From contig NW_019217885.1 in the NCBI RefSeq assembly GCF_002571385.2, forward strand, positions 260,207 through 324,206: a DNA stretch of 64,000 nucleotides, read 5' to 3'. Shown one piece after another: positions 20,301 through 63,808 of this stretch (position 1 is its first letter; each line of letters begins with the position of its first letter). This DNA comes from Stylophora pistillata. Taxonomy: Eukaryota. The notes beneath the pieces are model-generated. The model saw nothing but the letters and a program-made list of their open reading frames with translations, had not been told where the DNA came from and did not search any database. Both the position numbers and the translations under genes were made by a program.

Positions 20301-23300
20301 GTTCGTGACGTATTTCTGTTCTGGAAAAACATGGACGATAAATGAACGAGTGGGTGAATGATTGAAACTTATCACTATAATTATCTTTATCTCTCATCAA
20401 GACAATCAGGCTCGTGGTGGAGATGATTTCGTGGAGCTATGTCTCACTGTTCGTCGTTGAAACTTGCCGTTGTTCGGAAGGAAAGCTTGGACCCTGACAC
20501 TTCGCACGGGCAGATGGGAAGGGGAGGGAACAAGGATGACTAGAGATGCCGAAGATTAACTTAACAAGGATTGCTAGTGGAGATAGTGAAATTTACTAAG
20601 ATGGACAAATCAGGAAGTGGCCAAATTTGAGCACTCCATTTCTTCTTAATGACAATGATCATAGTTACAGAAACAATCTGTGCCCACCTGCACAATTCTG
20701 ACCGTTGCCAGTATACCCCATTTTGCACATGCACGAGAAGACATCATCTTTACTCAGACATACCGAGTTGGTATGGCACTTTGTACATGCATCAGAACCT
20801 TCGAAAAAGAATACAGGCATGTATTTGAAACTATATCGGTTCCAGGATTTTGTTTAATAATCATACGCGGCAATTTCCGGTAAGCGCAGTGCTTAGACAT
20901 TCCTATTTGGAGGGCGATAATATCGTATGAAGCCTTTTCATTCGCGTAGATAACTAAACTGTGAATCTATACAAGCTGGTTGAAAAACACTTCAACTGTG
21001 TCGTCATTTTTTCAGAATTCGATACATCCTATAAATAGGCACACAACCACAAAAGACACACGATAAGTTAGAATCGTGGAAAATTAGTCGTGTAACTTCA
21101 TGCAAGAGGCGAATGTCATTTACTGGTTTGCTGAAGTCCGGATCGAGAGGCAGGGACCCGAGCCTTGTAGGGGGTCATTTTATAACGGTCTTGGGCAACG
21201 CACGTTTCTCTCAAAATAGCAGGAAATCGTGACAACTTCTGACGGGTTTTAAGCTGTGACGGAGTAATATCTCGTCCAGGGGAGTGACAATACCTATGCT
21301 AGCTTCATTTTAAAAAGATTAAAGATTAATAGTACTAATGCTAATAATAATAAAACAGATGGAGCTACGGCATGATCAATGACTTGGGTCAAAAGACTTA
21401 TTCTTACCAACCCAATCTGCTCTGATGGAACAGAAATAAATAGAAAGTAAGAATAAAGGACAAACGACAAAAAGAACCCAAAGTATAACTAATATTACCT
21501 TTCACACCGTCATTAATGATCTTTTGGGCAATACCAGTTCCATCATCGTCATCGTTTATTTGGATAACGATTCCTTTGCTGGGAGCAAGTCTTGACAATT
21601 CATCTAAGTTTGCCAGAGAACCAACTGCAACGGGCAAGACGGTAATACCGCTATCTTCAAGCTCTTTGGCGGAGATTGACAACACTTGAGGATAGTTCAC
21701 TGACTTTTGATCAATCAAAACTACCAGTATCTTCTTGGCGCCTGGTCGCGGTGGAGCACTTTCAAACATTTTCTTTGCTTGATCGAGAGCATTTTTTAGG
21801 TTTGGTGTCCCTTTAGGTCTCACCACCGCGTTTATCGCGTCTTTAAAGCCTTGCGTGTTCTTAAAGTCATCTATGAAATCGATCTTGGTACTGGCTTGTT
21901 CTCCACATGTGATTAATGAGTAGCGTGAATTCTTTGTTCCGTATTCGTCGATGATAACTTCCACAGTTTCTTTCATGATCTTCAGTGTTGGATCAGATAA
22001 TGCGGCAATTATCACTCCAAGATCAATTTTTGGAGCGACAGCTGAATAAAGAAAGGAAAAAGTTAAGAAATTGGAAATATTTATAATGCCCGTTTGAAAA
22101 AATCTTACAAGTACCTTGGCAAGTTGTCCGGTCTCCTGTGAATCCTGGTTTGCATGTACAACTGTATAAGCCGTTACTATTTATACAATTAGCGTTCTTG
22201 TCAGAACACAACACATACACACACACACTTAGACATACATATATAAACAAATGGAGAGGTAGAAATACTTTTAGTGTGCAAATAGCCTATTTCTGCGCAA
22301 CAATCAATTAGCCAATAGCCACACCACCAATGACAGCCATAGCGCTTTCACAAAATTTCAAAATGCTGAGGGAGAACGAGTTCCTAAAGTGAGTTTCACT
22401 TTTTCATTTGCAGCTCCTTGATCTCTTTATGAAACCTACCTTGGCACGTTGTCCCATCCCCAGTGAACCCTGTCTTACACGTACAGCTGTAGGAACCTCC
22501 AGTATTAGAACAGTCAGCATTTTCGTCACACGGGCTACGCTCCGCTAAACACTCGTCAATGTCTGAAAAAGTAATGGACACATGGTAGTTCTTTAACCTC
22601 AACCACTTAGTTGTCCTTCTGAATTGAAACCTACCTTGACACGTTGTTCCATTGCCAGTGAACCCTGCCTTACACGTACAACTGTAGGAACCATCACTAT
22701 TAGAACAGTCTGCATTTTCGTCACATGGGCTAAGCTCCGCTGAGCACTCGTCAATATCTGGAAAAAAAAAAAAAGTAATGAACATATAGTAATTCTTTCA
22801 TCTCAACCACTTAGTTGTCCTTTAGACAAAGAGGGATGAAGATTTCTTCAGGACTTTACCATTTGTTTAGTTCAGTTTTTAGTAGTTTGGCACCCAATTT
22901 GCGCAGAGATTGCAACAGCGAAAAGTGTTGATAACCTCGTAGATGAGAAAGAGGAGAACTTCCTTTCATACTGGACCGTAGACGTTTCCTTATTGATCCG
23001 TGAACGTTATAGACATGTTGTTGGAGTAGGTAAAATGTGATGCGCGAATGCTCCAGTGAATGATTGGCAACGAAATCTACGACACAACGCAACATCACCT
23101 CTTTACGCTTTAATTTCGTTCATATGATTTCATGTACGGAGTAGGTCTCTGCTAGTTGATGAAGGTGCTCTGGACAAATCGTGCTTCATTTTAAAAATGA
23201 CAAACGAACAATGTTGGCGGGTGATTCCGTTGAGTCCCTGTTTAAAAGAAAAGCTGTACGAAACTTCACTGCTGATGTAATCACCATTCTCGTTACTCAG

Positions 23301-63808: not shown

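What the first reader, a model, noticed from the sequence alone, without database searches (positions are those of the whole stretch)
22440..63808. One-domain-per-exon, all phase 1-1 cassette array: a possible isoform- or allele-diversification system
Seen in sequence: every EGF is its own exon, a multiple of 3 in length, with identical intron phase. Any subset can therefore be skipped, duplicated or deleted without a frameshift. Intact, weak-acceptor (AAG at 31829, 34317, 37360), cysteine-defective, stop-containing and fully decayed copies coexist. Established: phase 1-1 symmetry is normal for EGF modules, so it is not evidence of alternative splicing by itself. Inference: the locus can tune protein length and sequence through exon skipping and unequal crossing-over, giving a hypervariable cell-surface protein. 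Variable length, or a role in recognition, would be a system worth describing.
Basis: partly seen in the sequence, partly recalled or inferred. Interest (0 to 1): 0.7.

Follow-up and report, generated by a model that had tools for sequence, protein, structure and literature searches.

The report
Giant coral EGF-ZP gene, variable stalk
A stony coral gene encodes a likely giant cell-surface matrix protein whose stalk of about 160 EGF modules is written one exon each; public RNA and a likely second haplotype show a few modules missing from some transcripts or alleles and one likely overwritten by a dead copy, but the modules are conserved, so this is likely tolerated drift in a structural stalk rather than a recognition system.

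Summary
The array is real: 87 of 87 six-cysteine EGF motifs are single phase 1-1 exons, and 72 more lie upstream. They belong to one predicted ~7,400-aa protein: probable C-type lectin, ~160 EGF, vWA, 2 EGF, ZP, furin site, membrane anchor. This works like Drosophila Dumpy or C. elegans FBN-1.

Of 25 RNA junctions shown, 3 skip intact exons; one exon is both kept and skipped within one sample. A second-haplotype contig carries two extra intact exons. One DNA run, partly backed by an RNA run, shows an expressed exon with its body likely copied from a dead exon 10 kb away.

Against a dedicated system: paralogous dN/dS is 0.23-0.31; apart from one pair at an assembly gap, copies are at most 93.5% alike; each event changes about 1% of the stalk; skipped exons mostly have weak acceptors; one-exon EGF modules are the genome's norm. 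The 'stop' exon reads cysteine in 4 of 4 RNA runs and is spliced in.

Verdict: a length-tolerant apical-matrix stalk with frame-neutral exon turnover. Recognition is untested.

The parts
22440..63808 (-). Array of 87 intact single-exon EGF modules, mostly calcium-binding type, phase 1-1; continues for 72 more exons beyond the window end (to G000:C102:360509), with an intact phase 1-1 C-type lectin exon 3 kb further up (C102:363362-363742)
21499..22041 (-). vWA exon, 543 nt, phase 1-1, spliced to the last array exon and to the next EGF exon
   Evidence: PF00092 E 2.7e-15; joints 22041-22440 and 20796-21497 in 4 of 4 RNA runs
20688..20798 (-). EGF exon after the vWA
20058..20180 (-). Calcium-binding EGF exon before the ZP module
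17346..17625 (-). ZP-N exon
   Evidence: PF23344 E 2.7e-12
16246..16551 (-). ZP-C first exon; the next ZP-C exon (P0002 residues ~181-215) has no match in the window and likely lies in the N gap at 15748-15758
   Evidence: PF00100 E 4.6e-16; tblastn of P0002
14894..15056 (-). End of ZP-C and RHRR furin-type cleavage site
14195..14331 (-). Last coding exon: hydrophobic membrane segment, short basic tail, stop
23484..24275 (-). Two intact EGF exons (24153-24275, 23484-23606) skipped by joint 22757-24561 in 4 of 4 RNA runs; 3rd and 9th weakest acceptors of 87
34709..35265 (-). Two intact EGF exons (35143-35265, 34709-34831) absent from run X10's transcript (joint 34596-35378); run X17 has joint 34596-34709, and loose ends that fit consecutive splicing of both
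37238..37360 (-). AAG-acceptor EGF exon, both kept (contig depth 96-99) and skipped (64) in X10; kept in X17
24561..24683 (-). Expressed EGF exon with a second allele whose body matches pseudo-exon 34317 (12 of 37 residues differ from the allele in the window); likely recipient of gene conversion
   Evidence: inferred from loose ends, depth and no listed difference
34195..34317 (-). Pseudo-exon (AAG acceptor, sixth Cys and donor lost), positional paralog of 37360; likely conversion donor
27241..27363 (-). EGF exon with TGA in the assembly; reads TGC in 4 of 4 RNA runs and is spliced in
41520..41525 (.). Site where contig G000:C2787 (98.4-98.8% identical flanks) holds 3.24 kb more, with two extra intact phase 1-1 EGF exons (L024:871-993, 3360-3482)
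57371..57496 (-). EGF exon with fifth Cys replaced by Trp, splice sites intact; use in RNA not tested
31707..31829 (-). Intact EGF exon with AAG acceptor; no junction for it among those shown
22115..22203 (-). Decayed EGF fragment without acceptor, spliced out by joint 22041-22440

Best explanation
This is the EGF stalk of a giant coral membrane protein gene (EGF array, vWA, two EGF, ZP, furin site, membrane anchor, with a likely lectin tip), predicted to be an apical-matrix polymer like Dumpy or FBN-1, whose frame-neutral exons are skipped, deleted or likely overwritten from time to time, likely because a long stalk tolerates it rather than because a system drives it. Shown: exon structure, transcription, splicing of the array's 3' part to vWA and the next EGF exon, three skip junctions, a two-exon difference between two near-identical contigs of the assembly, purifying selection among copies. 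Inferred: the lectin exon and the upstream exons are in the same transcript (~7,400 aa); furin cleavage frees the ZP module to polymerise, so the calcium-stiffened EGF rods project from an apical mesh (established ZP biology); exons duplicate, lose acceptor strength, become skipped and then decay; occasional gene conversion between copies makes new module alleles. Each event changes about 1% of the stalk.
For: Architecture. A relative has the same order cbEGF x4-(Ig)-vWA-EGF-cbEGF-ZP-anchor in one ORF (P0009, in the cluster of Acropora digitifera XP_015750953). 22 of 25 junctions shown join neighbouring intact exons. The pair skipped in 4 of 4 runs has the 3rd and 9th weakest acceptors of 87, and 37360 is 13th. 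11 decayed fragments lie between intact exons. dN/dS is 0.27, 0.26 and 0.23 for 9, 14 and 25 disjoint pairs, 0.31 without Cys codons, and 0.45-0.60 even at the 14 hand-picked variable positions. Listed exonic differences in other runs are 21 non-synonymous to 13 synonymous against a site ratio of 3.7, i.e. about 0.44. One-exon EGF modules are common genome-wide: 2590 candidates, 131 of 150 scored in open frames under 170 aa.
Against: Variation was found nearly everywhere it could be tested: 3 skip events in about 19 kb, 1 haplotype indel and 1 likely conversion allele, from few samples and with 62 of 77 joints hidden, so total diversity may be far larger. Exons 35265 and 34831, absent in X10, are not among the 14 weakest acceptors. 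The conversion allele is expressed at high contig depth (about 92) and changes 12 of 37 residues. A lectin tip fits recognition. No junction beyond 40650 was examined.
Confidence: 0.62

Rival explanations
1. A selected diversification system: regulated or allele-specific skipping plus conversion from silent exons gives each colony or tissue its own surface coat for self/non-self or microbe recognition.
For: Skip junctions differ between samples (X10 vs X17) and coexist in one; two-exon haplotype difference; conversion-like allele in two studies; lectin exon at the likely N-terminus; 3 of 4 changed codons in exon 40994 between the two haplotypes are non-synonymous. Precedents: Hydractinia Alr2 exons exchange with adjacent pseudogenes (PMC8282982, passages); sponge aggregation factors have 154 of 155 phase 1 introns (PMC5400394, passages).
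Against: dN/dS 0.23-0.31 and pN/pS about 0.44; exon 41790 differs between haplotypes only by 3 synonymous changes; no mutually exclusive arrangement was seen, most exons are used in series; no near-identical tandem units to drive rapid copy change; variation lies in the stalk, not shown in the tip.
Confidence: 0.17
2. All apparent skips are genomic deletion alleles; each haplotype has one constitutive path, so diversity is allelic only.
For: Contigs cannot separate a skip from an intronic-breakpoint deletion; such an indel exists at 41520; X10 has no own cover over 34626-35101; 96:64 for exon 37360 could be two alleles.
Against: Exons 24275 and 23606 are bypassed in 4 of 4 runs from 3 studies while their intron DNA is covered in those runs (X10 contig 22730-24182; X17 contigs 22729-24422; reads at 24476 in X24), and their acceptors are weak. 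No deletion joint in DNA runs X1 and X8 over 34150-37700 (X8 is shallow).
Confidence: 0.15
3. The variation is assembly or mapping artefact among look-alike exons.
For: One joint (35500-37745) was such an artefact; the TGA is likely one; C2787 contains an N gap; the conversion contig in X8 has depth about 3.
Against: The three kept skip joints use exon ends unique by at least 3 mismatches in 28 nt, or whole exons; 22757-24561 is also in raw reads of two runs; the conversion loci share exact runs of at most 18 nt, too short for a 31-mer chimera (the word length is my own knowledge); each C2787 extra exon is joined to its matching flank without crossing the gap.
Confidence: 0.06

Closest known systems
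Drosophila Dumpy (PMC2930355, passages read)
   Same: Huge EGF array, one ZP module, membrane anchor; nearly all internal exons divisible by 3; alternative splicing shown; a repeat region evolves by unequal crossing-over.
   Different: No DPY modules or PIGSFEAST repeats seen here; strictly one EGF per exon; vWA and a likely lectin tip; orthology not tested.
C. elegans FBN-1 (PMC4395870, passages read)
   Same: Fibrillin-like EGF repeats plus ZP and a furin site after ZP; apical matrix; alternatively spliced.
   Different: The array here is about 160 modules; skipping affects single EGF exons; vWA present.
Class 1-1 shuffled modules (PMC3927616, passages read)
   Same: [quoted passage not shown]
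   Different: None; this explains the phase pattern fully.
Amphimedon aggregation factors (PMC5400394, passages read)
   Same: Almost all introns phase 1, single-exon vWA, large surface proteins, polymorphic.
   Different: Calx-beta/Wreath domains, a five-gene cluster and excess non-synonymous polymorphism there; EGF-ZP and purifying signal here.
Hydractinia Alr2 (PMC8282982, passages read)
   Same: Single-exon domains exchanged with neighbouring pseudogenes by conversion or unequal crossing-over.
   Different: Alr2 is Ig-like, extremely polymorphic, under positive selection and binds allele-specifically; here only one conversion-like allele and dN/dS about 0.25.
Acropora millepora transcript A2, 'ZP-EGF protein' (PMC3204972, passages read)
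   Same: Coral EGF plus ZP matrix protein, aboral ectoderm and future calicoblast layer.
   Different: Whether A2 is the ortholog was not tested; no exon array or variation described in the passages seen.

Membership tests
ZP-domain apical matrix proteins | ZP-N followed by ZP-C near the C-terminus | tested here: met
ZP-domain apical matrix proteins | Basic furin-type site, then membrane anchor | tested here: met
   RHRR, hydrophobic segment, short tail
ZP-domain apical matrix proteins | Signal peptide | tested here: inconclusive
   No convincing signal exon found; a 2.1-kb N gap lies upstream of the lectin exon
ZP-domain apical matrix proteins | Cleavage and polymerisation into apical filaments | not testable with these tools
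   needs protein work
Dumpy/FBN-1-like EGF-ZP proteins | Long calcium-binding EGF array N-terminal to ZP in one transcript | tested here: met
   134 of 159 exons carry the hydroxylation motif; array-vWA-EGF joints; vWA-EGF-ZP in one ORF in relatives P0009, P0017. Met for the 3' part; full length not shown
Dumpy (orthology) | DPY modules and PIGSFEAST repeats | not tested
   None seen among the exon translations; no profile search was run
Fibrillin/LTBP | TB (8-Cys) domains between EGF runs; no ZP | tested here: not met
   ZP present; spliced neighbours shown are EGF to EGF; no TB profile search was run
Dscam-type mutually exclusive cassettes | One exon chosen per cluster | tested here: not met
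   22 of 25 junctions join consecutive exons
Invertebrate allorecognition loci (Alr2, AF) | Excess non-synonymous variation or positive selection | tested here: not met
   dN/dS 0.23-0.31 among copies; listed differences about 0.44; small, partly truncated sample
Invertebrate allorecognition loci (Alr2, AF) | Exchange with silent neighbouring copies | tested here: inconclusive
   One conversion-like allele: both flanks in X8 (depth about 3), 3' boundary in X10; not found as a protein
Invertebrate allorecognition loci (Alr2, AF) | Allele-specific binding or fusion phenotype | not testable with these tools
   needs grafts or binding assays

The most novel reading that the evidence does not exclude
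Dead EGF exons inside the gene's own introns serve as a template archive that rewrites expressed modules by gene conversion; with exon deletion and allele-dependent skipping this gives each coral colony a distinct lectin-tipped surface filament used in recognition.
Probability: 0.12. Interest if true: 0.78.

Novelty: new variant of a known kind. Interest (0 to 1): 0.42.

Why it matters
No paper describing this coral gene was found in the searches run, and homologous records are fragments, one of them named after SCUBE2. It gives corals a Dumpy-like giant matrix protein with a likely lectin tip. It also shows exon birth, skipping, decay, deletion and likely conversion side by side in one gene, which makes 'drift or selected diversity' testable with existing coral population and long-read data. 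If selected, it would be a candidate for the coral allorecognition factor, which to my own knowledge is unidentified. As it stands every mechanism has a precedent.

Tried and rejected
Joint 35500-37745 looked like a nine-exon skip; the end of 37867 differs by 1 nt in 34 from the adjacent exon 35736 and one search placed it at 35500-35614, so it was dropped before counting. Two odd joints table 5c (38199-29079, 40525-34208) fit exon 40994 just outside the stretch and were dropped (read by eye). Contig depth per bin was not used as evidence of inclusion. The hole in X1 at 34150-34506 and X10's hole at 34626-35101 prove nothing alone. The 96% duplicate 26 kb past the window end flanks an N gap and was treated as a likely haplotype overlap. 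Searches for further haplotype contigs were uninformative: one search returned nothing, not even the window itself; one search was filled by a repeat. Protein searches cap at 2000 aa and gave no full-length relative; the conversion allele was not among 54 hits (best 84%); none of the 150 ZP-N relatives listed had more than 2 EGF motifs. No signal-peptide exon was found. Paper searches gave 0 papers. PMC4890752 and PMC8382919 (passages) list ZP proteins in coral skeleton without this architecture; their supplements were not read and may list the gene. Earlier findings of the scan did not bear on this locus.

Full report
Observation. A scan blind to splice sites found 90 six-Cys EGF motifs in the window, all on the minus strand, 87 within 22440-63808. 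Each of the 87 is one AG..GT exon of 114-126 nt in phase 1-1. RNA uses the predicted boundaries at 25 junctions, so this is far beyond chance. It is not unusual, however: phase 1 flanks define class 1-1 modules (PMC3927616, passages). The genome has 2590 EGF_CA candidates, 131 of the 150 scored in open frames under 170 aa (counted by eye), and 57 of 82 vWA matches form a similar array on contig C119.

The gene. The array continues for 72 intact exons past the window, 159 in all, coding 6,526 aa; 134 carry the calcium-EGF hydroxylation motif. An intact phase 1-1 C-type lectin exon lies 3 kb further upstream on the same strand. Downstream are vWA, two EGF exons, ZP-N, ZP-C, an RHRR site and a membrane anchor; one ZP-C exon likely falls in an N gap. 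Spliced relatives confirm the order: P0002 (97% over ZP-N), P0017, and P0009, which clusters with Acropora digitifera XP_015750953 and has an extra Ig-like domain before the vWA. So the organism is a stony coral, and a close homolog exists in Acropora. The predicted protein is about 7,400 aa. No junction upstream of 40650 was examined, so a single transcript from lectin to ZP is inferred.

Splicing. Four RNA runs from three studies were laid on 20701-40650 (15 of 77 joints shown), then two RNA and two DNA runs on 34150-37700 (all 11 joints shown). After dropping one mis-assigned joint, 25 distinct junctions remain: 22 join consecutive intact exons and 3 skip. Joint 22757-24561 bypasses exons 24275 and 23606 in 4 of 4 runs, in raw reads too; their acceptors rank 3rd and 9th weakest of 87, and their introns are covered in the same runs. 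Joint 34596-35378 omits exons 35265 and 34831 in X10, while X17 splices 34831 in. Exon 37360 (AAG) is both kept and skipped in X10 and kept in X17. The exon ends involved are unique. Without matched DNA the last two could be deletion alleles. The TGA exon 27363 reads TGC in 4 of 4 runs and is spliced in.

Alleles. Contig C2787 matches window 42088-41520 and 41525-40657 at 98.8% and 98.4% but holds 3.24 kb more (871 of it N), with two extra intact EGF exons. I read it as the second haplotype. The break is a short microhomology in intron sequence, so it is not an unequal crossover between units. Second, one DNA contig of X8 covers 34204-34319 with no listed difference, yet its loose ends match 24540-24569 and 24686-24715 exactly; X10 shows the same 3' boundary at depth about 92. 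The window's own exon 24683 differs from 34317 at 29 of 116 bases and 12 of 37 residues. Copy 34317 is closest to 37360 in body and acceptor flank, so it is likely the donor. This is inferred from tables, X8's depth is about 3, and the allele was not found as a protein. No deletion joints appeared in X1 or X8 over 34150-37700.

Selection and turnover. Units are 65-85% alike, with no exact repeat of 50 nt in 20701-40650. Apart from one pair at an N gap, the closest exons are 93.5% alike, and 88 of 159 have their nearest copy within 10 exons. That fits old local duplication. dN/dS among disjoint pairs of the 53 123-nt exons in 22440-45000 is 0.23-0.27, 0.31 without Cys, and 0.45-0.60 at hand-picked variable sites. 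The 34 exonic differences listed in the lays are 21 non-synonymous to 13 synonymous, about 0.44 per site; one search showed only 40 of 332 rows and some rows may be cross-mapped.

Mechanism. Shown: structure, transcription, skips, the two-exon difference, purifying selection. Inferred from ZP biology (PMC4395870 and PMC2930355, passages): secretion, furin cleavage, polymerisation into an apical mesh carrying long calcium-stiffened EGF rods. Inferred here: because every module is frame-neutral and one module is under 1% of the rod, copies duplicate, weaken, are skipped, decay, are deleted or are converted at little cost (0.62). Rivals: selected diversification for recognition (0.17), deletions only (0.15), artefact (0.06).

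Comparison. It works like Dumpy and FBN-1, and meets the testable ZP-family features except the signal peptide. It is not a fibrillin, not Dscam-like, and lacks the selection signature of Alr2 or sponge aggregation factors (PMC8282982, PMC5400394, passages), though it shares exchange with silent copies and the phase bias. An A. millepora ZP-EGF transcript is expressed in the future calicoblast layer (PMC3204972, passages); identity was not tested. No paper on this gene was found; unread supplements may list it.

Verdict. Real feature, real but modest variation, known mechanisms: a new variant of a known kind, interest 0.42. The bold reading, a silent-exon archive feeding colony-specific surface coats, has probability about 0.12.

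Noticed in passing
G000:C119:103297-185939: 57 vWA matches in separate short open frames on one strand within 83 kb, 3 with stops: a second giant one-domain-per-exon array.
   Followed up: no
L010:4576-5082 to L011:8334-8771 (+ strand): Oppositely oriented neighbour with C-type lectin, EGF and ZP-C exons, a likely paralog; a rhodopsin-type GPCR frame (L011:1803-2951) lies between its exons.
   Followed up: partly
window 22730-24182: Unspliced RNA contig at depth 46 in X10 against 6-14 for nearby introns; sense reads in X23: slow or retained splicing around the skipped pair. Contig breaks at 24153 and 23606 hint at minor inclusion.
   Followed up: partly
window 4768-5727 and 1739-2158 (+): Mab-21/cGAS-like frame (PF20266 E 6.8e-14) downstream of the gene, apparently in pieces.
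   Followed up: no
P0009 residues 191-289: The Acropora-type relative has a V-set Ig-like domain between the EGF array and vWA that has no match in window 1-24000.
   Followed up: no
P0203 (unnamed contig): A relative has two nearly identical intron-plus-EGF units in tandem, suggesting a recent expansion in another lineage.
   Followed up: no
L004-L005, about 26 kb past the window end: 96% identical 432-nt two-exon duplicate on both sides of a 961-N gap; likely haplotype overlap.
   Followed up: no
window about 28680-28920, 32500-33100, 40580-40680, 45960-46480, 59580-60420: High-copy repeats inserted in the array's introns; L024:1119-3223 has 150-nt inverted ends.
   Followed up: no
window 18347-18705: 65-bp tandem repeat, 5.5 copies, 97% alike, in the intron before ZP-N.
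   Followed up: no
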